From Candidatus Hydrogenedens sp. (GTDB taxonomy: Bacteria > Hydrogenedentota > Hydrogenedentia > Hydrogenedentales > Hydrogenedentaceae): a stretch of 64,000 nucleotides of DNA. Positions 686-52,178 of this stretch are shown here, piece by piece. Both the position numbers and the translations under genes were made by a program. The notes beneath the pieces are model-generated. The model made no database searches, had not been told where the DNA came from, and saw nothing but the letters and a program-made list of their open reading frames with translations. Each line of letters starts with the position of its first letter. Positions within the stretch are counted from its first letter, which is position 1. Location of the stretch: assembly GCA_049968235.1 (NCBI GenBank), contig JBMFRC010000007.1, positions 98,153 to 162,152 of the forward strand, written 5' to 3'.

Positions 686-1669
686 CTATTTACCTTTAAC
701 TGCCTCTATAACTGTATCCATTTGTTCCCCATGAATCTTAAAATGAACATTTTTGAACCCTGCCTGATTTAAATCCTCTTTAATCTCCTCAAAGGTATAT
801 GTGCCTCCTCCTTGCGTCCCTACTAACATATTAATTGCAAATAATGCCCCAGTCTTCGGATGTGTCCTATCTTCGGACATTACATAATCTCGTATCCACA
901 AAACACCTCCTGTTTCCAGAGCAGACATGCATTTCTTATATAGATTTACATTTTGTTTCCGGCTGTTCTGATGTATTATTGCCGATAACCACAAAAAATC
1001 ATATCCACACGGTAATTCATCCTTATAAAAATCTCCGGCATAAAAATCTATCCTGTCTTTATAGGGAGAATTTTTCAATCGTTCTCTGGCTATATCTATA
1101 ACTGGGGGTAAGTCAAATATTGTTGCCTGTAATTGAGGATTCATCTCGATAAAGGCTTCAGAATAAGTTCCTGACGCTCCTCCTACATCTAACATTTTTT
1201 TATAAGGGATAGTCCCTAATTTTTTTAACAACGGTCTGGATGCTCTCTGGGCAAGCACATGCATACCTAAAATAAACGCCTTCAACTGGTCTGAACTCAT
1301 CTGTTCAACAGGTTTTATTGTAATTGTTTTTCCTCTTACTATATCTGTAAGTTGAGACCAGCGATGCCATAAATTTGCATAATGTTCTAACATAGGCAAC
1401 ATACATTCGGGACCTTTTTTACTTAAAAAAGGAACTACTTCTATAGAAGTTTTATATTTTCCCTCTTTCTTTTCCAGCAATTTCATAGCAGACATCGCAT
1501 CCAGTAAATACTGTGTTGCCCTTTCTTCGGAATGTAATTCTTTACATATTTCCTGCAAATCCATCTCTTTCTCTGACAGCAATGTAAAAATATTCAGTTC
1601 AACACCTGTAAGTAAAACCCGTGCTTCACGAAACTTAATAGCAATTTCTACCAATTTAGGGAAGTCCAT
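686..1669 (-). CDS. Class I SAM-dependent O-methyltransferase (plant/bacterial OMT-like with N-terminal dimerisation/winged-helix domain)
   Basis: 327-aa ORF. Has the DVGGASG glycine-rich SAM-binding motif and a downstream acidic loop (DFYAGDFYKDELP), the architecture typical of hydroxyneurosporene/caffeate-type OMTs. Confidence 0.75.
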   Translation of the reverse strand: MDFPKLVEIAIKFREARVLLTGVELNIFTLLSEKEMDLQEICKELHSEERATQYLLDAMSAMKLLEKKEGKYKTSIEVVPFLSKKGPECMLPMLEHYANLWHRWSQLTDIVRGKTITIKPVEQMSSDQLKAFILGMHVLAQRASRPLLKKLGTIPYKKMLDVGGASGTYSEAFIEMNPQLQATIFDLPPVIDIARERLKNSPYKDRIDFYAGDFYKDELPCGYDFLWLSAIIHQNSRKQNVNLYKKCMSALETGGVLWIRDYVMSEDRTHPKTGALFAINMLVGTQGGGTYTFEEIKEDLNQAGFKNVHFKIHGEQMDTVIEAVKGK

Positions 1670-30479: not shown

Positions 30480-31169
30480 GTGATTAAGCGAAAAATCATT
30501 TCTATAGACTCCGAAAAATGTAACGGTTGTGGTTTGTGTGTTAACGCCTGTGCGGAAGGTGCTATAAAACTCATTAATGGCAAAGCACAATTAGTTTCCG
30601 ATGTTTACTGCGATGGTTTAGGAGCATGTCTGCCTCATTGCCCCACATTAGCACTCTCCATTGTAGAACGAGAAGCGGAACCTTTTGATGAAGAATTAGT
30701 TAAATTACAGCAAAGCATTAACGAACCTAAAACACCCATACATACATGCCCGAGCATACAATTCAAACCTGACCCTGCCCGAAAAGGAACCCTTTCCTAC
30801 TGGCCTATCCAGATTCGACTCGTTCCCCCTATGGCTCACTACCTTCAAAACGCTAAACTCCTGGTAGTGGCGGATTGTGTTCCCATCGCATATCAAAATT
30901 TCCACAGCGATTTTTTGCAAGACCATGTTGTCCTTGTCGGCTGTCCCAAATTCGACCCGAAAGAACAATATGTTCAAAAATTCGCCGAAATTTTCACAAA
31001 CAATGATATAAAAAACGTTACCATCCCCGTTATGGAAGTTCCATGCTGTCAGGCACTACCCAATATCGTACTTGCAGGCTTGCAATATTCAGGGAAGAAT
31101 ATCCCTGTTGAAAAAATTATAATCTCAATTCAAGGAGAAATATTGGGTAAACAATTCATTAATGGGTAG
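30480..31169 (+). CDS. 4Fe-4S ferredoxin-domain protein (GTG start)
   Basis: 229 aa. CNGCGLCVNACAEGAI is a CxxCxxCxxxC cluster motif, plus a second cysteine group CDGLGACLPHCP. AGGAG RBS 6 nt upstream of GTG. Immediately upstream of nrfH. Confidence 0.6.
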   Translation: MIKRKIISIDSEKCNGCGLCVNACAEGAIKLINGKAQLVSDVYCDGLGACLPHCPTLALSIVEREAEPFDEELVKLQQSINEPKTPIHTCPSIQFKPDPARKGTLSYWPIQIRLVPPMAHYLQNAKLLVVADCVPIAYQNFHSDFLQDHVVLVGCPKFDPKEQYVQKFAEIFTNNDIKNVTIPVMEVPCCQALPNIVLAGLQYSGKNIPVEKIIISIQGEILGKQFING

Positions 31170-31175
31170 AAATTA

Positions 31176-31651
31176 ATGCAACAAAAATCATCTAAAATAT
31201 CCTCAGGTTTTTCTCATTTAATACCTATCTGCGTATGCTTCGGAATTCTCATCGGAGTAGGTTCTTTCACTTTTATTACGCCCGCGGTTATTCATACCTT
31301 ACCGATGACCCCAACGCCTGTGCTAATTGCCATGTAATGAAAGATTTTCTCGACTCCTGGCAAAAATCAAGCCATCACACTGTTGCAGTCTGTAATGACT
31401 GCCATACAGGACATACCTTGTTCTCCAAATACTATGTCAAAGGCTTAAACGGCTATCACCATTCCACCGCATTCACTCTGGGCAATTTCCACGAACCTAT
31501 TCGCATTAAAGAATTCAACCGAAAAGTAACAGAGGGAAACTGCCGATTTTGCCACCAAGACATTGTGCAAAATATTGATTCCAATATTGCTCATCGCAAA
31601 CCATTACAATGCTTAAATTGTCATTTTAATGTAGGTCATTTTAATTATTAA
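31176..31651 (+). pseudogene. nrfH: Cytochrome c nitrite reductase small subunit NrfH (NapC/NirT tetraheme quinol dehydrogenase), apparent -1 frameshift in a T4 run
   Basis: The ATG at 31176 encodes MQQKSSKISSGFSHLIPICVCFGILIGVGSFTF (the TM anchor), then reaches a stop at 31335. The frame of the 31235 ORF encodes YYARGYSYLTDDPNACANCHVM plus three more CxxCH motifs. Inserting one T in tttt (31271-31274) joins them as ...GVGSFTFYYARGYSYL..., matching the NrfH N-terminal architecture. This is either a sequencing error or a real frameshift. Confidence 0.7.
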
Positions 31652-31668
31652 AGGAAAAGAAAAAGAGC

Positions 31669-33087
31669 ATGACAAAAAAAATCAGAGGCAATGAAGGTAT
31701 ATCCTCAATCACCGCAGTTATCCTTGTGCTGGGAGTTGCTTTCGCCACATTTGCGGTAACTGCATTGCTTATTAATATCTTTGAGAAACAACAAGAGGCA
31801 AAAAATCCTTTTTTCCGTGTTGTTGACATTAATGACGACACGGAAGACCCGGAAATCTGGGGAAAGAATTTTCCTATCCAGTATGACCTGTATAAAAGAA
31901 CTGTAGATATGGTCCGCACAAAATACGGTGGCAGTGAAGCATTACCTCATACGCCTACCGAAAATGACCCGCGTTTCGTTGTTAGCCAATCCAAAATTGA
32001 ACTCGACCCCCGACTAAAACGAATGTGGGCGGGTTATGCCTTTGCCATTGATTTTCGTGAAGAGCGAGGACATGCCTATATGCTCGATGACCAGACCTTC
32101 ACAGGCAGACAACAGAAGCCACAATTCGGTGTGTGTGCACATTGCCACGCATCAGTATATGTCCCCTATAAAAAATTGGGTAATGGCGACCTTATAAAAG
32201 GTTTTGAAAAGATGAATCCCATGCCCTATATGGAAGCGAGAAAACTCTTACAACATCCTGTTGCATGTATCGATTGTCATGACCCAAAAACCATGCAACT
32301 ACGAGTAACCCGTCCCGGTTTCCTTGAAGGAATTAAAACCTACAAAGAAGCTCAGGGAATAAAGGACTACAATCCCAACACTATGGCAAGCAGACAAGAA
32401 ATGCGGACCTATGTCTGTGCCCAATGCCATGTTGAATATTATTTCAAAGGCGATGAAAAACGACTTACCTACCCATGGCATAAAGGTCTGGAAGCAGATA
32501 ATATCCTCGCCTACTACGATGAAATCAACTTCAAAGATTGGGTTCATGCAGAAACAAATGCACCTATGCTCAAAGCACAACATCCTGAATTTGAATTATG
32601 GAGTCAGGGCATTCATGCTCGTTCCGGTGTCGCCTGTGCAGATTGCCACATGCCATATACTCGCGTAGGAGCTTTAAAAGTAAGTGACCATCATGTCCGT
32701 AGTCCATTATTGAATATTAACCGTGCCTGCCAGACCTGTCACCATTTCTCCGAAGAAGAACTCAAAGCACGCGTAGAACGTATTCAAGACAAAACAGCTG
32801 AAATGAAAGATATGGCAATGGATTCTCTTATAGCACTCATTGACGATATTAAACGAATCCTGGATACAGGCATCTCCAATGAAAAAGTTGAAGAAGCCCG
32901 CTTATGCCAGCGTCGTGCGTCATTCCTGATAGACTTTGTTGAGGCGGAAAACTCCACAGGCTTCCACGCCGACCAGGAATCCGCCCGTATCCTATTCAAA
33001 GCCATGGACCATCTTCGCAAAGGACAGGTCGCACTCAAAGACGCCATTACCCTCTACCAGGCATACGGCAACACAACAACAAACTAA
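31669..33087 (+). CDS. nrfA: Ammonia-forming cytochrome c nitrite reductase NrfA (pentaheme)
   Basis: 472 aa. N-terminal signal anchor. Five heme motifs CAHCH, CIDCH, CAQCH, CADCH and CQTCH, plus the conserved LKAQHPEFE and YxxH regions. AAGGAAAAG RBS. Confidence 0.9.
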   Translation: MTKKIRGNEGISSITAVILVLGVAFATFAVTALLINIFEKQQEAKNPFFRVVDINDDTEDPEIWGKNFPIQYDLYKRTVDMVRTKYGGSEALPHTPTENDPRFVVSQSKIELDPRLKRMWAGYAFAIDFREERGHAYMLDDQTFTGRQQKPQFGVCAHCHASVYVPYKKLGNGDLIKGFEKMNPMPYMEARKLLQHPVACIDCHDPKTMQLRVTRPGFLEGIKTYKEAQGIKDYNPNTMASRQEMRTYVCAQCHVEYYFKGDEKRLTYPWHKGLEADNILAYYDEINFKDWVHAETNAPMLKAQHPEFELWSQGIHARSGVACADCHMPYTRVGALKVSDHHVRSPLLNINRACQTCHHFSEEELKARVERIQDKTAEMKDMAMDSLIALIDDIKRILDTGISNEKVEEARLCQRRASFLIDFVEAENSTGFHADQESARILFKAMDHLRKGQVALKDAITLYQAYGNTTTN

Positions 33088-33146: not shown

Positions 33147-34004
33147 CTATCTCTTTTTTTTGCAGTCGAAGTAGTGGTTGTTTTTGGGACCGAACCAGCC
33201 GACATTCCATGCACGATTAATAGCACCGTAGGCATTTTCTTCCGTTGCCCATTCCCAGCGTTCTGAGGTGATATGTCCATCACACCATAAGACATTTGCC
33301 CTGCCCCAATGTCGAAAATGTAATGTTGGCGACATATATACACCTTCCTGCCCTCGTGGATAATTTGCTGAAACCATCAATGGCGGTTCCACAAAACTAT
33401 ATTCGACAATATATCCATTCTGAGGCATTCCACTATCTGCAAACATAATCGTCTCTGAGGGATTTTCAATCATCCGCTCATGCATTCCTGATTTACATGC
33501 TTTTACCGGGTCATGTTCGATACTCAACATGGAACCGACATACGCCATGTTATATCCATAGCCGCCCGAACCCGATTCAAATGCGTTGGGAACCTCGCCT
33601 AAACTCCGATATTCAAAAAATTCCGAGCATTCTTTAATCCTTCCCTCCGGCACATATTCAAATAACGGTCCTTTGCGAAAATCGAACGGCGTATCTGGAT
33701 TTGGGGTATCTCGTCTTCCATGCCATCTACATCTACCTCCGAAATGGTCAGGTTCCGAACCCGGCAACAAAAAATCATACATATCCGAGGCGGCTGGAAC
33801 ATAATACCCATTATTCTCTGACGCATACATTGTATTAGCAAGGTACAATTGTCTCAAATTATTCACACATGAGACACTCCTTGCCTGTGCCCGTGCCCTT
33901 GATAATGCAGGTAGAAGTATAATTGCCAGAATGCTAATGATGGCAATAACAACCAGCAGTTCAATTAGAGTAAATCCCATATTTCTCTGCAAATTAAAAA
34001 ACAT
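33147..34004 (-). CDS. DUF1559 family protein with prepilin-type N-terminal cleavage/methylation domain
   Basis: 285 aa. [45 protein letters not shown]-terminal H-X9-DG motif ([13 protein letters not shown]). Its start overlaps the stop of the upstream surface-protein gene. Confidence 0.8.
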
Positions 34005-36108
34005 TCTGACCTCTTTTTACTTTCTCTTTCTTATCTGTGAGGAGAAGCAGTCCTATGACGACACATATTAGAGCCAAAAAAGCACTGCCTGCCATAGGAA
34101 GTGTTTTTACCTCAAACTCAAAATTCCGGCATATTAATTCATGAGAACGATATTCATCATCATAAATACATACCTCTACATAAGCAGTCCCACCTACAGA
34201 TATAGGTTTTACAACAAAATATATCCTCCCTTCAGAAATTGTAATTTGATGCCCCGGAACAGCACGCAATACATCCGATGTAACTATTGTTCCACCTGCA
34301 ATATCTACTGTAACCACACCCGTCTGTAATGGATTTCCGTAAATATCCTGAAATTCATCCGAAATAAAACTGAAATACTGCCCACCTTCTCCCATATTCC
34401 ATAAATTAGCAATATACGCTGGCGGTCCCGGTAAAATATCAATAAATATCTCTCCGTGTATCGTATTATCTATACTCTGAACCCAAAGTTTTCCCTTTCC
34501 TGCTACAGTTCCAGCCTCCACATTTATCTCCAATTTTCCATCCTTCACCGCAACCTGAAGACCGTCAATAATTACATCCTCATCCATATTCAAAATATCC
34601 AGCAAAAAAGTATTAATCGTAAACAGTTTCCCATCTGAAACTGGATTATTTTCCACATCCCTTATCTCATCACCCGTAACCCTTACAACATCTCCATATC
34701 CTACCACCTTTGTCTGCGATGGGTTCGCTGTTAAATGAATATGTCCCTGTCCCGGATTAATATCTCCTTCCCCTGCTAATGAAAATATCGCAAATACGCC
34801 CGGATACCGTGTTTGAAAAATTATCTTATTATTCACAAGGTCACGGTCAATAACATTTACATCTGAATTTACCCATTCTGTCCCATTCCAGCGATAAACA
34901 TTTATCTCCGCTTCATCCATCCCATGAATTTGCTCTGCATTGTATCGGACTCTCATCTTTGCCCATGCAATTTGAGCATTCTGAAAATCATTTACAGAGG
35001 AGGATAATTGAATGAACAAACCGCCCTTTACCAATCCATTTACTCCTACTGTTGACGGATCTGGAACGGATTGCAAATCCACACTACAATTATAAGGTCT
35101 TTCACCCGTTCTAATCCCGGATGAAACTAATGTTATACAAATGTAATCTTCTGGATTACATGCAGTCCCCAACTCCATACCCGCTGGACTACCTCCCCAA
35201 ATACCAGGTATTTCCAGAGGCAGAACGGTGCTTTCCGGTCGGTTCGGGTCTGTTCCGGAAACTTGTGTTTCATACTCATCAAGAACTCCATCCCCATCTG
35301 TATCTATATCTGGTGCCACATCGGCAAATGCCATAACTTCCGTTGTATAAAAACCATACACAGGGTCAAGAATATTGGGTATTGTTGAAATTCGTATAAA
35401 ATCGAATTCATCAAGATTTGCCGGGGTTCCCGATTCATCAACAGCCCATGCAATATCAAACGCATCACCGCCCCCGCTACCTATATCAATACCTACAGTC
35501 TTTGGATTATCCGGTCGCAAATAATTATCCTTATACGGTGGCATGGTCGGATTGGTATCCGCATAACCCCACACTACTTCCTGGTTCGTTGTCGTAATTA
35601 CATTTCCTGCAAATGGTGGTGTATTGTTTGTCAATCCCTGAGGGAAAACAATCCTATTTAAGTTTCTACTACCAGGAATAACATACCACACATCATCCGC
35701 CAACCCATTTTTATTCACATCCTTTGATATTTCAATTAGTCCGGGTTCTATAAACTTCCTGTGCATATCCCCTCCAATCCAAAAGGCATTGGAATAAATA
35801 ATACAATCCAGCCCCATCGGATTATGGGGGTCATCCTTTACAGGAGTATTAAACTTCACAATAATAAAACTTTCTTGAGGTGCTCCCGGTGTGCCGATTG
35901 AATAAATACCACTCATTGACGGTAAACTTACACCAAACCCTAATGGTGCTCCCAAAACATCGTGCGGATTGGTAAAGCCAACATTTTGATTTATCCCAAA
36001 ATAGGACACAACCTCATCTGCCCATGGGTCATCATCCGCATAAGAATATACGGAGATAATGCAACATAGGAGAATAATCAATAAATATCTTTTTTTTCTG
36101 TCAAACAT
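33994..36108 (-). CDS. Large secreted cell-surface protein with C-terminal membrane anchor (hypothetical), downstream of a cobalamin riboswitch
   Basis: 704 aa. Signal peptide [24 protein letters not shown]. Beta-rich Gly/Asp/Asn-rich body containing a Ca-binding-like [13 protein letters not shown]-terminus [35 protein letters not shown] is a motif, then a TM helix, then a basic tail. Confidence 0.7.
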
Positions 36109-36239
36109 CGCATCTATAGCCTTTCAAAATTTTGTTCAGGCTACAGACGGAGGATTAAACACTGGAAGGGAAGTTGTTCAGCCCATATTTGATGGACTGT
36201 CAGACATCAGCCTTCCCGCGAGACCTCAGTCTGTTCGCT

Positions 36240-36410
36240 CAAATCGGACAGCAACTGGTAGGTCTTCGGACTTGCAGGCACAAACCTACTTGGCTCGGCT
36301 TCCCAGAAATGCATCCAGTGCCATTACGAGCTGTTCGTTCCTGCTCACCGCTGCGGGGCAGTTCCGGCTTTGCACCGGATTCCCTCTTAGCACCCTTTAC
36401 ACTACTTTGG
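36240..36410 (-). promoter_or_regulatory. Cobalamin (AdoCbl) riboswitch
   Basis: The minus-strand RNA reads AGGGUGCUAAGAGGGAAUCCGGUGCAAAGCCGGAACUGCCCCGCAGCGGUGAGCAGG...AUGGCACUGG...GCAAGUCCGAAGACCUACCAGUUGC. This matches the conserved cobalamin-riboswitch core (cf. E. coli btuB leader GGGAAUCCAGUGCGAAUCUGGAGCUGACGCGCAGCGGUAAGG) and the B12 box (cf. AAGCCCGAAGACCUGCC). Local GC is far above the surroundings. Confidence 0.75.
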
Positions 36411-36555
36411 GTGACCAGTCACAGAGCGATTCAATTTTGTTTGTATTCACTTATAGAGTAATAACACAAAAAGATAAAAAATTTCAAATATTTCAGAACC
36501 AATATACCTCTATATGGTATATTAATATTATAGATGTCAAAAGGAAAAAACGAAT

Positions 36556-36807
36556 ATGATATTTGATTTTAGTAAGTGTCAATCATCTAAAGAAAATATT
36601 CAAAACGCTATAGGACTATGGATTCTTAATATTCAAGGAAAAGATGTTTGTTTCTGGGGAAATTTTGAAGAAGCTTCAAAAACTGCAGAACTTTATTTAA
36701 AAACAAAGAACATAGAAAATACTACTGTTTATCTAATAGATTGTGTTGATTATAGCCAGATGTTCCATGAGGATCATTCTATAAATTCCTATTCCCAATC
36801 TATTTAA
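36556..36807 (+). CDS. Small hypothetical protein
   Basis: 83 aa. AAGGAAAAAA RBS. Upstream extended -10-like tggTATATT at about 36513-36521. No known domain. Confidence 0.3.
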   Translation: MIFDFSKCQSSKENIQNAIGLWILNIQGKDVCFWGNFEEASKTAELYLKTKNIENTTVYLIDCVDYSQMFHEDHSINSYSQSI

Positions 36808-39096: not shown

Positions 39097-39173
39097 CGCG
39101 GGGTGGAGCAGTCTGGCAGCTCGTTGGGCTCATAACCCAAAGGTCGCTGGTTCGAATCCAGCCCCCGCTACCA
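39097..39173 (+). tRNA. Initiator tRNA-Met (anticodon CAT)
   Basis: CGCGGGGTGGAGCAGTCTGGCAGCTCGTTGGGCTCATAACCCAAAGGTCGCTGGTTCGAATCCAGCCCCCGCTACCA. C1:A72 mismatch and three G-C pairs closing the anticodon stem (GGG/CCC) are initiator hallmarks. CCA is encoded. Confidence 0.85.
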
Positions 39174-51926: not shown

Positions 51927-52002
51927 TGCCGGATCGCCTAATTGGTAGGGCACCTGACTCTGGATCAGGCTTGTCTAGGTTCGAGTCCTAGTCCGGCAGC
52001 CA
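51927..52002 (+). tRNA. tRNA-Gln (anticodon CTG)
   Basis: TGCCGGA acceptor stem pairing with TCCGGCA. Anticodon stem CCUGA/UCAGG with loop CUCUGGA, so the anticodon is CUG. TTCGAGT T-loop. CCA encoded. T-run follows. Confidence 0.8.
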
Positions 52003-52102: not shown

Positions 52103-52178
52103 GGCCCCTTCATCTAGCGGTTCAGGATGCAGGATTCTCAGTCCTGTCACACGGGTTCGAATCCCGTAGGGGCTGCCA
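52103..52178 (+). tRNA. tRNA-Glu (anticodon CTC)
   Basis: GGCCCCU UC AUCU AGCGGUUCA GGAU G CAGGA UUCUCAG UCCUG UCAC ACGGG UUCGAAU CCCGU AGGGGCU G CCA. The architecture closely parallels E. coli tRNA-Glu. Confidence 0.75.

What the first reader, a model, noticed from the sequence alone, without database searches (positions are those of the whole stretch)
36240..36410. Cobalamin riboswitch hidden under spurious ORFs, controlling a surface-protein / DUF1559 pseudopilin operon rather than a classical B12 gene
This GC-rich stretch reads as a cobalamin riboswitch on the minus strand. The ORF track covers it with plus-strand ORFs 36059..36559 and 36174..36461.

Sequence match:
- Core of the riboswitch: GGGAAUCCGGUGCAAAGCCGGAACUGCCCCGCAGCGGUGAG.
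- B12 box: GUCCGAAGACCUACC.
- Both are near-identical in pattern to the E. coli btuB leader.

What it controls:
- The first gene downstream on the minus strand is the 704-aa signal-peptide protein 33994..36108, about 140 nt from the aptamer.
- That gene's stop overlaps the start of a DUF1559 prepilin-like gene (33147..34004).
- Neither gene is a BtuB/BtuFCD, cob/cbi, metE or nrd homolog.

Inference: this B12-repressed operon encodes a previously undescribed cell-surface corrinoid capture or uptake device in a Planctomycetes-like cell. It would be analogous in logic to Bacteroides BtuG, and it implicates the enigmatic DUF1559 pseudopilin family in nutrient acquisition.
Basis: partly seen in the sequence, partly recalled or inferred. 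Interest (0 to 1): 0.85.

Follow-up and report, generated by a model that had tools for sequence, protein, structure and literature searches.

The report
B12 riboswitch controlling BtuH-like/pilin-like operon
A genuine vitamin-B12-sensing RNA switch sits in front of a two-gene operon whose first protein carries a distant relative of the Bacteroides B12-capturing BtuH domain and whose second is a pilin-like protein of unknown function (DUF1559); the trio recurs in almost every related genome, giving DUF1559 its first testable functional lead.

Summary
Rfam RF00174 matches the minus strand at 36434..36240 over the full model (113.3 bits, E 1.3e-27). The plus-strand ORFs over it are spurious.

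The riboswitch lies 131 nt upstream of a 704-aa gene. That gene overlaps a 285-aa DUF1559 prepilin-like gene by 11 nt. No terminator intervenes, and a conserved hairpin buries the Shine-Dalgarno sequence.

- The organism is Candidatus Hydrogenedens (Hydrogenedentota), not a planctomycete.
- The 704-aa protein is not unrelated to known B12 proteins. Its N-terminal domain is a remote homolog of the BtuH B12-binding domain (PDB 7BIZ and 8BLW_B; profile E 2e-16 and 6e-19). The phosphate/metal-site residues are conserved.

The association is strongly conserved:
- 66 of 69 assessable homologous loci carry RF00174 upstream on the same strand. These come from Hydrogenedentota and Phycisphaerae.
- The DUF1559 gene follows in 59 of 63 loci, and is fused into one ORF in 35 of the top 120 homolog clusters.
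- Many loci add a YncE-like beta-propeller gene.

Best reading: a B12-repressed corrinoid-capture module. This is a new variant of the BtuH kind, with an unprecedented pilin-like partner. B12 binding, cellular location and the DUF1559 role remain untested.

The parts
36553..36582 (-). Promoter-like site (TTGACA, 18 nt spacer, CATATT) about 120 nt upstream of the aptamer
   Evidence: Consensus scan only, 10 of 12 matches. The number of such sites in the region is no higher than in shuffles, so this is a candidate, not evidence.
36240..36434 (-). Cobalamin riboswitch aptamer (RF00174, full length including the peripheral extension)
   Evidence: 113.3 bits against a gathering score of 31.5, E 1.3e-27, model positions 1-189 of 189. 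The same family is found at the same relative position in 66 related loci.
36344..36384 (-).
   Evidence: Read directly from the sequence. It aligns to the GGGAAcccGGUGcAAauCCgggGCuGCCCCCGCaACUGUAA part of the model.
36257..36271 (-). B12 box (GUCCGAAGACCUACC)
   Evidence: Read from the sequence. It aligns to the consensus GCCAGGAGACCuGCC.
36201..36233 (-). First hairpin of the expression platform (CAGAC...GUCUG). It is invariant among close relatives, and its 5' part (CAGACUGAGG) can alternatively pair with CCUCCGUCUG at 36153..36144.
   Evidence: RNAalifold consensus on 8 orthologous leaders. A fold constrained to the alternative pairing gives -53.2 kcal/mol against -53.4 for the MFE.
36111..36149 (-). 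SD-sequestering hairpin (CGUCUGUAGCCU / AGGCUAUAGAUG). It contains the Shine-Dalgarno GAAAGG (36125..36120) and ends 2 nt before the AUG.
   Evidence: Present in the MFE and centroid folds, z-score -4.1. The 12-bp stem is kept in most of the 8 aligned orthologous leaders, with a few one-sided changes and no compensatory ones. There is no terminator-like site on this strand.
33994..36108 (-). 704-aa gene ('Y'): secreted, C-terminally anchored protein carrying a BtuH-like domain
   Evidence: ORF, translation. 306 homologs were found, mostly from Hydrogenedentota. The AF2 model has pLDDT 84.6.
36037..36108 (-). Signal peptide (aa 1-24, [24 protein letters not shown]|DDD)
   Evidence: Read from the translation and helix 3-19 in the model. 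There is no canonical lipobox. The cleavage site is inferred.
35311..36027 (-). BtuH-like putative corrinoid-binding domain (aa about 28-266)
   Evidence: The family profile against the PDB hits 8blw_B (BtuG1 H-domain) at E 6.3e-19 and 7biz_A (BtuH2) at 2.1e-16. The single window domain gives 8e-10 and 1.9e-9, with no other significant hits. These two entries are also among the top three Foldseek PDB hits for the AF2 model. Residues N107, E121, Y182 and D194 are invariant and E257 is at least 90% conserved; they align to BtuH2 N399, E406, Y510, D522 and E584.
35236..35304 (-). Bacterial thrombospondin type 3 (calcium-binding) repeat, aa 269-291
   Evidence: PF18884, E 1.8e-5. It is present in 31 of 36 family members.
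34111..35232 (-). Stalk of beta-sandwich / Ig-like domains (aa about 293-666)
   Evidence: The AF2 model is all-beta here with high pLDDT. Foldseek hits include invasin, InvD, intimin and FdeC Big domains. Invasin_D3 and Big_1 match weakly in some members.
34015..34095 (-). C-terminal transmembrane helix followed by a basic tail (aa 672-698, then [12 protein letters not shown])
   Evidence: Helix 672-698 in the model. A hydrophobic stretch followed by a basic tail is conserved in the family consensus.
33147..34004 (-). 285-aa gene ('Z'): DUF1559 / H-X9-DG type-IV-pilin-like protein. Its start overlaps the stop of Y by 11 nt (ATGTTTTTTAA).
   Evidence: PF07963 N_methyl 29.3 bits and PF07596 DUF1559 25.5 bits. 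NCBIfam pilin and pseudopilin models match the N-terminus. Z follows Y in 59 of 63 loci. It is fused to Y in 35 of the top 120 homolog clusters.
33912..33977 (-). Prepilin leader and cleavage/methylation motif (NMG|[16 protein letters not shown], Glu at mature position 5)
   Evidence: PF07963 and TIGR02532 above their cut-offs. The family profile matches solved type IV pilins and GspG over this helix only.
33270..33317 (-). H-X9-DG motif region ([16 protein letters not shown])
   Evidence: Read from the translation. H229, R231, H232, D242, G243 and H244 are invariant among 38 homologs. TIGR04294 scores 17.2 bits, just under its cut-off of 19.
36059..36559 (+). Spurious plus-strand ORFs (36059..36559, and 36174..36461 nested within it) antisense to the riboswitch
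   Evidence: Listed mechanically. The region is fully accounted for by the RNA match. Antisense frames are not conserved in length or position in related loci.

Best explanation
This is a class-I-type cobalamin riboswitch acting as a translational OFF switch for a self-contained two-gene operon in a Candidatus Hydrogenedens genome.

Regulation. When a corrinoid (most likely adenosylcobalamin) fills the aptamer, the leader settles into the form in which a 12-bp hairpin buries the Shine-Dalgarno sequence next to the AUG. When corrinoid is scarce, the operon is translated.

Gene 1 (Y). It encodes an exported protein. Its membrane-distal N-terminal domain is a remote homolog of the BtuH B12-binding domain. 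[quoted passage not shown]

Gene 2 (Z). It encodes a very highly conserved DUF1559/H-X9-DG type-IV-pilin-like protein. It is made in fixed proportion with gene 1, from overlapping or fused ORFs. In the fusions the layout is: transmembrane helix, basic cytoplasmic linker, then prepilin leader. Prepilin peptidase could therefore separate the two proteins side by side in the membrane.

Proposed function. Together they form a corrinoid-capture module. In many relatives a YncE-like beta-propeller gene precedes the pair. The BtuH-like head binds the corrinoid. The pilin-like partner either positions that head or relays the ligand towards a transporter encoded elsewhere.

Shown: the riboswitch, the operon layout, the BtuH homology, and conservation of the riboswitch, gene 1 and gene 2 trio.
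Inferred: ligand-dependent SD sequestration, B12 binding, the location of the proteins, and any role for the pilin-like protein.
For: Riboswitch and platform:
- RF00174 at 113.3 bits over the full model.
- No terminator-like site on the minus strand between the aptamer and the AUG.
- The SD-burying hairpin appears in the MFE and centroid folds (z -4.1) and is kept in orthologous leaders.
- A nearly isoenergetic alternative pairing exists.

BtuH homology:
- Profile E 6.3e-19 and 2.1e-16 to 8BLW_B and 7BIZ.
- Single-sequence E 1.9e-9 and 8e-10, with no other significant PDB hits.
- They rank first and third among Foldseek PDB hits.
- BtuH2's metal/phosphate-site residues N399, E406, D522, S582 and E584, and the corrin contact Y510, align to N107, E121, D194, T255, E257 and Y182. 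All of these except T255 are invariant or at least 90% conserved in the family. The residue roles come from PMC8941943 and PMC13616437.

Conservation across loci:
- RF00174 is on the same strand in 66 of 80 homologous loci. Eleven of the other 14 are cut too close to the gene to judge, which gives 66 of 69.
- Its 3' end lies 81-271 nt before the first cassette gene in 64 of 66 loci.
- Z follows Y in 59 of 63 loci.
- 35 of 120 homolog clusters are single-ORF Y-Z fusions.
- Z homologs picked independently also sit behind Y with the riboswitch upstream.

Context:
- Flanking genes differ between genomes and are unrelated to B12.
Against: - No experiment has been done. B12 binding is inferred from remote homology (about 18-21% identity).
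- Three of BtuH2's four corrin hydrogen-bonding residues are not conserved. W511 and W577 are replaced, and H476 lies in a BtuH-specific insertion.
- The anchor type differs from BtuH: a C-terminal transmembrane helix instead of an N-terminal lipid. No btuB, btuG or btuFCD gene is in or next to any of the cassettes examined, so the onward route for the ligand is unknown.
- Three loci (L008, L010, L067) have at least 1 kb of upstream sequence and no riboswitch, even at E<=1.
- The link between ligand binding and the hairpin is unresolved. No covarying kissing-loop partner was found. The alternative pairing frees the hairpin only partly.
- The globular part of Z resembles no solved structure convincingly.
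Confidence: 0.65

Rival explanations
1. The riboswitch and the BtuH-like binder work as above, but the DUF1559 protein plays no part in handling the ligand. It is a cargo-specific pseudopilin. It couples the binder (and the beta-propeller, where present) to a type II secretion or type IV pilus-like machine for export or surface display.
For: - Z has a complete prepilin leader and matches pilins and pseudopilins over the N-terminal helix.
- The tight 1:1 coupling with Y, including fusions, fits an adaptor for one cargo.
- From general knowledge: pseudopilin tips contact secreted substrates in type II secretion.
Against: - Y and X carry their own C-terminal hydrophobic anchor. That is not typical of type II secretion cargo.
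- No secretion-machine genes are adjacent.
- The extreme conservation of the globular part of Z is greater than expected for a mere adaptor to the far more variable Y.
Confidence: 0.22
2. The operon is B12-repressed but is not a corrinoid-capture system. The BtuH-like fold binds some other ligand (for example a glycan or a surface), and the proteins form an adhesin or surface structure whose expression merely uses B12 as a cue.
For: - The protein looks like an adhesin: a TSP3 repeat and invasin/intimin-like Ig domains.
- Three of four corrin hydrogen-bonding residues of BtuH2 are not conserved.
- The BtuH paper notes modest fold similarity of the BtuH domain to an alginate lyase (PMC8941943).
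Against: - Cobalamin riboswitches almost always control B12 transport, B12 synthesis or B12-independent isozymes (established knowledge).
- The riboswitch is kept in 66 of 69 loci across two phyla, while the stalk length varies from none to about 400 aa. The BtuH-like domain is the constant part.
- The residues that hold the nucleotide-loop phosphate in BtuH2 are the conserved ones.
Confidence: 0.1
3. The aptamer is an orphan or decaying element, or the plus-strand ORFs over it are the real genes.
For: Open reading frames of 166 and 95 codons cover the region on the plus strand.
Against: - The match is full-length at 113 bits with an intact B12 box.
- The same element sits at the same spacing in 66 related loci.
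- No terminator-like site lies between it and the gene.
- The antisense frames are not conserved.
Confidence: 0.02

Closest known systems
BtuH B12-binding domain of Bacteroides thetaiotaomicron (BtuH1 BT1488, BtuH2 BT1956 = PDB 7BIZ; H-domain of BtuG1/BtuGH BT1490 = PDB 8BLW chain B)
   Same: - Homologous domain: profile E 2e-16 and 6e-19, and ranks 1 and 3 among Foldseek PDB hits.
- The metal/phosphate-site residues and Y510 are conserved.
- It is encoded behind a cobalamin riboswitch.
- It is displayed at the end of a stalk of Ig-like domains away from a membrane anchor.
- It is often accompanied by a beta-propeller protein. In Bacteroides that is BtuG, which is even fused to the H-domain in BtuG1. 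Here it is the YncE-like gene X found in 27 of the 80 related loci.
   Different: - Only about 18-21% identity.
- The order is inverted: binding domain at the N-terminus, stalk, then a C-terminal transmembrane helix, instead of N-terminal lipid, PKD stalk and C-terminal domain.
- W511, W577 and H476 are not conserved.
- No btuB or btuFCD is in the operon, whereas more than 80% of Bacteroidetes btuH genes share an operon with btuB (PMC8941943).
- The obligate partner is a DUF1559 pilin-like protein.
- The phyla are different. The literature places BtuH in Bacteroidota plus three Firmicutes (PMC13616437).
Cobalamin riboswitches with translational expression platforms (RF00174; for example the E. 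coli btuB leader)
   Same: - Full consensus aptamer with B12 box.
- Located in the 5' leader of a corrinoid-acquisition gene.
- No intrinsic terminator.
- The ribosome-binding site sits inside a hairpin next to the start codon.
   Different: - The genes controlled are different.
- The link between aptamer and platform (the kissing loop known for this class, from my own knowledge) could not be identified here.
Type IV pilins and type II secretion pseudopilins, including modular and ligand-binding minor pilins (for example the DNA-binding ComP and the bimodular S. sanguinis PilB, PMC8179133)
   Same: - Class III signal peptide with G|FTLIELLVV and Glu5.
- Long N-terminal helix (aa 13-63 in the model).
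- Shares the idea of a pilin-like protein dedicated to one ligand or cargo.
   Different: - The globular DUF1559/H-X9-DG head has no solved relative.
- It is encoded away from any pilus or secretion machinery.
- It is coupled, and often fused, to a membrane-anchored binding protein. I know of no precedent for that.
BtuG (surface beta-propeller B12 binder capping BtuB) and DUF4465/BtuJ (beta-jellyroll B12 binders)
   Same: All are accessory corrinoid binders encoded in riboswitch-controlled loci. Gene X of related loci is a YVTN/YncE-type beta-propeller. BtuG1 carries the depositor's name 'YncE family protein'.
   Different: - The window has no X gene.
- The X profile does not detect BtuG chains by sequence.
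- No member of the family matches any Pfam-A model over the N-terminal domain at E<=1, and Pfam-A should include DUF4465.

Membership tests
Cobalamin riboswitch (Rfam RF00174) | Covariance-model score above the curated gathering threshold over the whole aptamer | tested here: met
   113.3 bits against 31.5, E 1.3e-27, model positions 1-189 of 189, minus strand 36434..36240.
Cobalamin riboswitch (Rfam RF00174) | B12 box and conserved core junction sequences | tested here: met
   GUCCGAAGACCUACC at 36271..36257 and the GGGAA...GCCCCGCA core at 36384..36344 align to the consensus.
Cobalamin riboswitch (Rfam RF00174) | Position in the 5' leader of the regulated gene, same strand, with no intervening terminator and promoter | tested here: met
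   It lies 131 nt upstream of AUG 36108. There is no minus-strand terminator-like site. The same arrangement is seen in 64 of 66 related loci.
Cobalamin riboswitch (Rfam RF00174) | Expression platform that switches on ligand binding | tested here: inconclusive
   An SD-burying hairpin is predicted and kept in most of the aligned orthologous leaders, and an alternative pairing exists. No covarying kissing-loop partner was found.
Cobalamin riboswitch (Rfam RF00174) | Binds a corrinoid and represses expression | not testable with these tools
   Needs in-line probing or ITC, and reporter assays.
BtuH-type B12-binding domain | Sequence homology to the roughly 250-270-aa domain shared by BT1488, BT1490 and BT1956 | tested here: met
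   Profile against the PDB: 8blw_B residues 424-659 at E 6.3e-19 and 7biz_A residues 266-492 at E 2.1e-16. The single sequence gives 1.9e-9 and 8e-10.
BtuH-type B12-binding domain | Same fold | tested here: met
   The AF2 model has pLDDT 84.6. Foldseek against the PDB ranks 8blw_B first (E 3.5e-9) and 7biz_B third (E 1.4e-7). TM-scores are low because the query has several domains.
BtuH-type B12-binding domain | Conserved two-metal / nucleotide-loop phosphate site (BtuH2 N399, E406, D522, S582, E584) | tested here: met
   These align to N107, E121, D194, T255 and E257. N107, E121 and D194 are invariant and E257 is at least 90% conserved in 36 homologs. The residue list comes from PMC13616437.
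BtuH-type B12-binding domain | Corrin-ring hydrogen-bonding residues (Y510, W511, H476, W577) | tested here: inconclusive
   Y510 aligns to the invariant Y182. W511 aligns to A183. W577 aligns to V250, with Y251 adjacent. H476 lies in an insertion absent here. The alignment in these loops is uncertain.
BtuH-type B12-binding domain | Encoded in a cobalamin-riboswitch-controlled locus | tested here: met
BtuH-type B12-binding domain | Surface lipoprotein (N-terminal lipobox) usually co-operonic with btuB | tested here: not met
   There is no canonical lipobox, and the protein has a C-terminal transmembrane helix. No TonB-dependent receptor or btuFCD is in the operon or its flanks.
BtuH-type B12-binding domain | Direct high-affinity B12 binding | not testable with these tools
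   Needs SPR, ITC or spectroscopy on the purified domain.
DUF1559 / H-X9-DG prepilin-like proteins (PF07596, PF07963, TIGR04294) | Prepilin-type N-terminal cleavage/methylation motif | tested here: met
   PF07963 scores 29.3 bits against a cut-off of 21.2, and TIGR02532 scores 25 against 16.3. The motif G|FTLIELLVV with Glu5 is visible in the translation.
DUF1559 / H-X9-DG prepilin-like proteins (PF07596, PF07963, TIGR04294) | DUF1559 domain match | tested here: met
   PF07596 scores 25.5 bits against a cut-off of 23.3, but only over residues 36-65. Many close homologs carry a precomputed PF07596 hit.
DUF1559 / H-X9-DG prepilin-like proteins (PF07596, PF07963, TIGR04294) | C-terminal H-X9-DG motif | tested here: met
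   H232, nine residues, then D242-G243 is visible in the sequence and invariant. The TIGR04294 model scores 17.2 bits, just under its cut-off of 19.
DUF1559 / H-X9-DG prepilin-like proteins (PF07596, PF07963, TIGR04294) | Pilin fold, and assembly by a type IV pilus or type II secretion machine | tested here: inconclusive
DUF4465 / BtuJ B12-binding jellyroll | Match to a Pfam DUF4465 model | tested here: not met
   No Pfam-A family matched the N-terminal domain in any of the 36 members at E<=1. DUF4465 is BtuJ, a family separate from BtuH (PMC13398666).
BtuG beta-propeller | Seven-bladed propeller B12 binder encoded with the system | tested here: not met
   The window has no homolog of the propeller gene X found in related loci. 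The X profile matches YVTN/YncE propellers (1l0q at 5e-9, 3vgz at 6.8e-4) but no BtuG chain.

The most novel reading that the evidence does not exclude
DUF1559/H-X9-DG pilin-like proteins are the working parts of a previously unrecognised envelope-crossing nutrient-uptake route. A short pseudopilus or pilin-anchored complex receives a ligand from a tethered binding protein and carries it inward, without a TonB-dependent transporter. Here the binding protein is a BtuH-like corrinoid binder, often accompanied by a BtuG-like propeller. The B12 cassette would be the first member with an identifiable substrate. The hundreds of DUF1559 paralogs in Planctomycetota and their relatives would then be substrate-specific versions of the same device.
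Probability: 0.15. Interest if true: 0.9.

Novelty: new variant of a known kind. Interest (0 to 1): 0.66.

Why it matters
- **BtuH range.** The BtuH class of B12 binders has so far been described in gut Bacteroidota and three Firmicutes. This finding extends it to uncultured environmental phyla (Hydrogenedentota and Phycisphaerae), in a different architecture.
- **Database gap.** Neither Pfam nor NCBIfam recognises the domain in these proteins, so standard annotation misses the B12 link. NCBI names the protein 'thrombospondin type 3 repeat-containing protein'.
- **DUF1559 function.** DUF1559/H-X9-DG is a very large, functionally blank family. From general knowledge, it is expanded to many paralogs per genome in Planctomycetota and their relatives. 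Only four papers in the searched library mention it at all.
- **A testable lead.** One sharply conserved DUF1559 subfamily is tied to a defined small-molecule ligand by three lines of evidence:
  1. a riboswitch,
  2. operon overlap or fusion,
  3. a partner with a known ligand.

  That turns the question 'what are these pilin-like proteins for?' into experiments: binding assays, complex modelling and genetics in a cultivable Phycisphaerae.
- **Uptake route.** It also raises the question of how these bacteria move corrinoids across the envelope, since no BtuB is encoded in or beside the cassette.

Tried and rejected
1. **DUF4465 assumption.** I first assumed the BtuH-like domain might be DUF4465. 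PMC13398666 showed that DUF4465 is BtuJ, a different family. No Pfam model hits the domain.
2. **Kissing-loop partner.** I compared L5 loops with the loops of the three platform hairpins in 8 orthologs. I found no consistent complementarity or covariation, so the coupling mechanism is left open.
3. **Anti-sequestor.** CAGACUGAGG can pair with CCUCCGUCUG at nearly equal energy. That pairing opens the SD hairpin only partly, so I do not claim it as the ON state.
4. **Propeller gene in the window.** I searched for a copy of the propeller gene X with tblastn and an HMM. There is none.
5. **Relating X to BtuG by sequence.** The profile finds only generic YVTN/YncE propellers.
7. **Weak riboswitches in the three exception loci.** A search at E<=1 found none.
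8. **B12-related or secretion genes in the flanks.** I checked the window and two long contigs and found none.
9. **Literature linking the components.** I searched for any link between cobalamin riboswitches or BtuH and DUF1559, pilins, Hydrogenedentes or Planctomycetes. Nothing was found, though the library holds only open-access papers.
10. **Not done.** I did not compare the aptamer directly with the E. coli btuB leader. I did not survey the MAG for btuB, btuFCD or cob genes, because the rest of the genome is not available here.
Full report
**1. Observation**

A scan of the whole window against Rfam gives one cobalamin riboswitch hit (RF00174). It is on the minus strand at 36434..36240 and covers all 189 model positions. 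It scores 113.3 bits against a gathering score of 31.5, with E 1.3e-27.

The core is at 36384..36344 and the B12 box at 36271..36257. The plus-strand ORFs 36059..36559 and 36174..36461 exist and lie antisense to the RNA. Antisense open frames over the aptamer in related loci differ in length and position. That is expected for G+C-rich structured RNA and not for a gene.

**2. Anatomy of the locus**

- The aptamer's 3' end lies 131 nt upstream of AUG 36108, the start of a 704-aa ORF (33994..36108, minus strand).
- The stop of that ORF overlaps the start of a 285-aa ORF (33147..34004) by 11 nt, at ATGTTTTTTAA.
- The next gene is a convergent nrfA-type cytochrome c552 gene (31669..33087, plus strand), so the operon has two genes.
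- Upstream there is only a divergent small ORF, plus a promoter-like site at 36582..36553. That site is a consensus match only.
- No terminator-like site lies on the minus strand between the aptamer and the AUG.

The leader folds significantly better than shuffled sequence (z -4.1). In both the MFE and centroid structures, a 12-bp hairpin (36149..36111; CGUCUGUAGCCU / AGGCUAUAGAUG) contains the Shine-Dalgarno GAAAGG and ends 2 nt before the AUG. In an alignment of eight orthologous leaders the hairpin is kept in most sequences, with a few one-sided changes. A second hairpin shows compensatory changes, and a third (CAGAC...GUCUG) is invariant.

An alternative pairing of CAGACUGAGG with CCUCCGUCUG is nearly isoenergetic (-53.2 against -53.4 kcal/mol). 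It opens the sequestering hairpin only in part. I could not find a covarying kissing-loop partner for L5. Translational control by SD sequestration is therefore the best-supported mechanism, but how ligand binding is transmitted remains open.

**3. Organism**

The closest database protein is 100% identical over the 87% of the query it covers. It is annotated as coming from a Candidatus Hydrogenedens sp. MAG, and nearly all 306 homologs that carry a name come from Hydrogenedentes. This is not a planctomycete.

**4. The 704-aa protein (Y)**

Pfam sees only a bacterial thrombospondin type 3 repeat (aa 269-291). NCBIfam gives only a sub-threshold match to a Leptospira lipoprotein family.

An AlphaFold2 model built from 36 homologs is confident (pLDDT 84.6). 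It shows these parts in order:
- a signal peptide;
- a globular N-terminal domain (about aa 28-266);
- the TSP3 repeat;
- about 370 residues of beta-sandwich domains;
- a C-terminal helix (aa 672-698) followed by a basic tail.

Foldseek against the PDB ranks the BtuB1-BtuG1 complex chain B (8BLW_B) first and the B12-binding lipoprotein BtuH2 (7BIZ) third. The remaining hits are Ig-like stalk domains of invasins and intimins.

Sequence evidence confirms the homology:
- The family profile hits only those two entries significantly. 8BLW_B residues 424-659 (the H-domain of BtuG1) scores E 6.3e-19, and 7BIZ residues 266-492 scores E 2.1e-16.
- The window domain alone gives 1.9e-9 and 8e-10, with nothing else below E 0.3.

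BtuH is a characterised class of B12 binders (Putnam et al. 2022, PMC8941943; review PMC13616437). Using the offset between 7BIZ chain numbering and BtuH2 numbering (+100), I mapped the binding residues.

| BtuH2 residue | Role | Window residue | Conservation in the family |
|---|---|---|---|
| N399 | two-metal / phosphate site | N107 | invariant |
| E406 | two-metal / phosphate site | E121 | invariant |
| D522 | two-metal / phosphate site | D194 | invariant |
| S582 | two-metal / phosphate site | T255 | conservative change; conservation not tabulated |
| E584 | two-metal / phosphate site | E257 | at least 90% |
| F401 | aromatic corrin contact | F109 | same residue in the window |
| Y510 | corrin H-bond | Y182 | invariant |
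| W511 | corrin H-bond | A183 | not conserved |
| W577 | corrin H-bond | V250 | not conserved |
| H476 | corrin H-bond | none | lies in a BtuH-specific insertion |

The pocket region that the BtuH paper found to be conserved (near the phosphate) is the part conserved here. The corrin contacts are only partly conserved.

DUF4465, which I first suspected, is BtuJ and a different family (PMC13398666). No Pfam model covers the domain in any of the 36 members.

**5. The 285-aa protein (Z)**

- It has a prepilin leader and the cleavage/methylation motif G|FTLIELLVV with Glu5 (PF07963, TIGR02532).
- It has a DUF1559 match above threshold, and the H-X9-DG motif is visible in the sequence.
- Its homologs are strikingly conserved. 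The 120th best cluster is still 59% identical, against 38% for Y. Invariant blocks include RWHG, FExGxGGYGYN and HxRHxxRxNxxWxDGH.
- The AF2 model (pLDDT 75.6) has the long N-terminal helix of pilins.
- Solved pilins match by sequence only over that helix.

The globular head therefore has no solved relative.

**6. Conservation of the arrangement**

A scan of one genome per species returned 80 loci encoding relatives of Y. Most are from Hydrogenedentota. Seven are from Phycisphaerae, where only the N-terminal domain is present.

Riboswitch:
- Rfam finds RF00174 on the same strand upstream in 66 of the 80 loci.
- I mapped the genes with HMMs of the three proteins. Eleven of the 14 negatives have the first cassette gene within 150 nt of the end of the available DNA, so they cannot be judged.
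- Only L008, L010 and L067 have at least 1 kb upstream and no riboswitch, even at E<=1. L008 is a second copy in a MAG whose other copy (L009) has the riboswitch.
- This gives 66 of 69 assessable loci.
- The riboswitch ends 81-271 nt before the first cassette gene in 64 of 66 loci.

DUF1559 partner:
- Z follows Y in 59 of 63 loci with room.
- In 35 of the 120 best Y clusters the two are one ORF of about 880-1065 aa.
- In these fusions the order is: ectodomain, transmembrane helix, basic linker, prepilin leader, G|FTLIELL. Cleavage by prepilin peptidase on the cytoplasmic face would therefore release a membrane-anchored Y and a mature pilin-like Z side by side. This is an inference from topology.
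- Starting instead from Z, two homologs on long contigs both sit directly behind a roughly 700-aa Y gene, with RF00174 upstream.
- Flanking genes differ between genomes and have nothing to do with B12, secretion or pili. The cassette is autonomous.

Third gene and domain variation:
- In 27 loci a third gene (X, about 340-400 aa, two copies in three loci) lies between the riboswitch and Y.
- Its profile matches YVTN/YncE-type beta-propellers (1L0Q at 5e-9, YncE 3VGZ at 6.8e-4) but no BtuG chain.
- X also ends in a hydrophobic stretch followed by basic residues.
- The window has no X.
- The length of Y varies from about 270 aa (domain only) to about 700 aa. The BtuH-like domain is the constant element.

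**7. Interpretation**

*Shown:*
- a bona fide cobalamin riboswitch in the leader of a two-gene operon;
- a BtuH-homologous domain in gene 1;
- a DUF1559 pilin-like gene 2;
- near-universal conservation of this trio across two phyla.

*Inferred:*
- The riboswitch represses translation when corrinoid is plentiful. The platform is predicted and the ligand class follows from the full RF00174 architecture.
- Y binds corrinoids.
- Z works with Y.

I commit to a B12-repressed corrinoid-capture module. The BtuH-like head, held away from its membrane anchor by the stalk, captures the ligand. The pilin-like partner, made in fixed proportion, positions the head or relays the ligand to a transporter encoded elsewhere. 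My confidence in the whole statement is about 0.65. By part, it is about 0.99 for the riboswitch, about 0.9 for control of this operon, about 0.75 for corrinoid binding by Y, and about 0.5-0.6 for a direct role of Z in acquisition.

'Cell surface' is not established. A Sec signal peptide plus a C-terminal transmembrane helix would, taken at face value, tether Y to the cytoplasmic membrane facing the periplasm, unless the C-terminal signal is a sorting signal.

**8. Comparison with what is known, and novelty**

The RNA is an ordinary member of RF00174. Gene 1 works like BtuH and shares its domain. It fails the parts of the BtuH description that concern anchoring (lipoprotein) and context (btuB operon), and it comes from phyla where BtuH has not been reported. 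[quoted passage not shown]

The pairing with a DUF1559 pilin-like protein has no precedent in the searchable literature:
- no paper combines 'cobalamin riboswitch' with DUF1559;
- only four papers mention DUF1559 at all;
- nothing links BtuH or riboswitches to Hydrogenedentes, Planctomycetes or pilins.

The library holds only open-access papers, so absence there is not proof. I rate this a new variant of a known kind. It is interesting chiefly because it attaches a defined ligand and a regulatory logic to one subfamily of a large family of unknown function.

**9.

It is wrong or overstated on the phylum, on the absence of any homology to known B12 proteins, and on surface location.

Noticed in passing
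window 33994..34004: The stop of the 704-aa gene and the start of the DUF1559 gene overlap in the run ATGTTTTTTAA. In 35 of the 120 best homolog clusters the two genes form one continuous ORF: transmembrane helix, basic linker, prepilin leader. A one-base slip in the T6 run would fuse them here too. I did not examine whether any frameshifting occurs.
   Followed up: partly
L023 1189..2376, L079 1231..2370, L081 4745..5815 and 24 other loci: A third cassette gene (X) lies between the riboswitch and the BtuH-like gene. It encodes a YVTN/YncE-type beta-propeller of about 340-400 aa with a C-terminal hydrophobic anchor. This echoes the BtuG-BtuH pairing and fusion in Bacteroides. It is absent from this window.
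   Followed up: partly
L069 469..2367 and L073 548..2479; also L053, L060, L064: These loci carry longer X variants of about 630-640 aa, with a C-terminal extension of roughly 300 aa that matches no Pfam family or PDB entry. L053, L060 and L064 have two X genes in tandem.
   Followed up: partly
L071 592..761 and 873..1073: Two full-length RF00174 aptamers sit in tandem upstream of one cassette. Tandem riboswitches usually give a sharper or two-input response.
   Followed up: no
L008, L010, L067: These are Y-Z pairs with at least 1 kb of upstream sequence and no cobalamin riboswitch, even at E<=1. L008 is a second copy in the MAG that also holds the riboswitch-bearing L009. They may be constitutive or differently regulated paralogs.
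   Followed up: partly
window 34015..34095 (and the C-termini of X proteins in related loci): Both Y and X end in a short proline/glycine-containing motif (LPxxG-like), a hydrophobic helix and a basic tail. This recalls C-terminal sorting signals such as PEP-CTERM, but no NCBIfam sorting-signal model matched.
   Followed up: no
window 35716..36027 (aa 28-131 of the 704-aa protein): There is a sub-threshold but consistent match to NCBIfam NF033170, the 'LIC_13355 family lipoprotein' of Leptospira. It is seen in 35 of 36 family members, best E 2.9e-11. Leptospira may therefore have a related, unrecognised BtuH-like domain.
   Followed up: no
window 33549..33629 (aa 126-152 of the DUF1559 protein): The most conserved block of the DUF1559 protein (C126, F129, E131, F142, E143 and the glycine-rich GxGGYGYN) is exactly where the AlphaFold model is least confident (pLDDT below 50). 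This could be a flexible ligand- or partner-binding loop.
   Followed up: no
window 30480..33087 (+): Convergent with the operon is a nitrite-reductase-like cluster: a 4Fe-4S ferredoxin-type protein, a NapC/NirT-type tetrahaem cytochrome (31235..31651) and cytochrome c552 NrfA (31669..33087, PF02335 E 8.5e-131).
   Followed up: no
window 39097..39170, 51927..51999, 52103..52175 (+): Three tRNA genes (RF00005, 54-62 bits). The tRNA near 39.1 kb is syntenic with a tRNA about 1.1-1.2 kb upstream of the riboswitch in L003, L004, L005 and L035.
   Followed up: no
L060 5362..5407 (-): An Acido-Lenti-1 small RNA match (RF01687, 50.4 bits) lies downstream of the cassette in one Hydrogenedentota-like MAG.
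   Followed up: no
record titles of L003, L006, L008, L009, L022, L026 and others: Many MAGs carrying this Hydrogenedentota-type cassette are labelled 'uncultured Nitrospirales/Nitrospiraceae bacterium'. Single ones are labelled Desulfovibrionaceae (L048) or Rhodothermaeota (L067). These are probably taxonomic mislabels or mis-binned contigs rather than true spread of the cassette.
   Followed up: no
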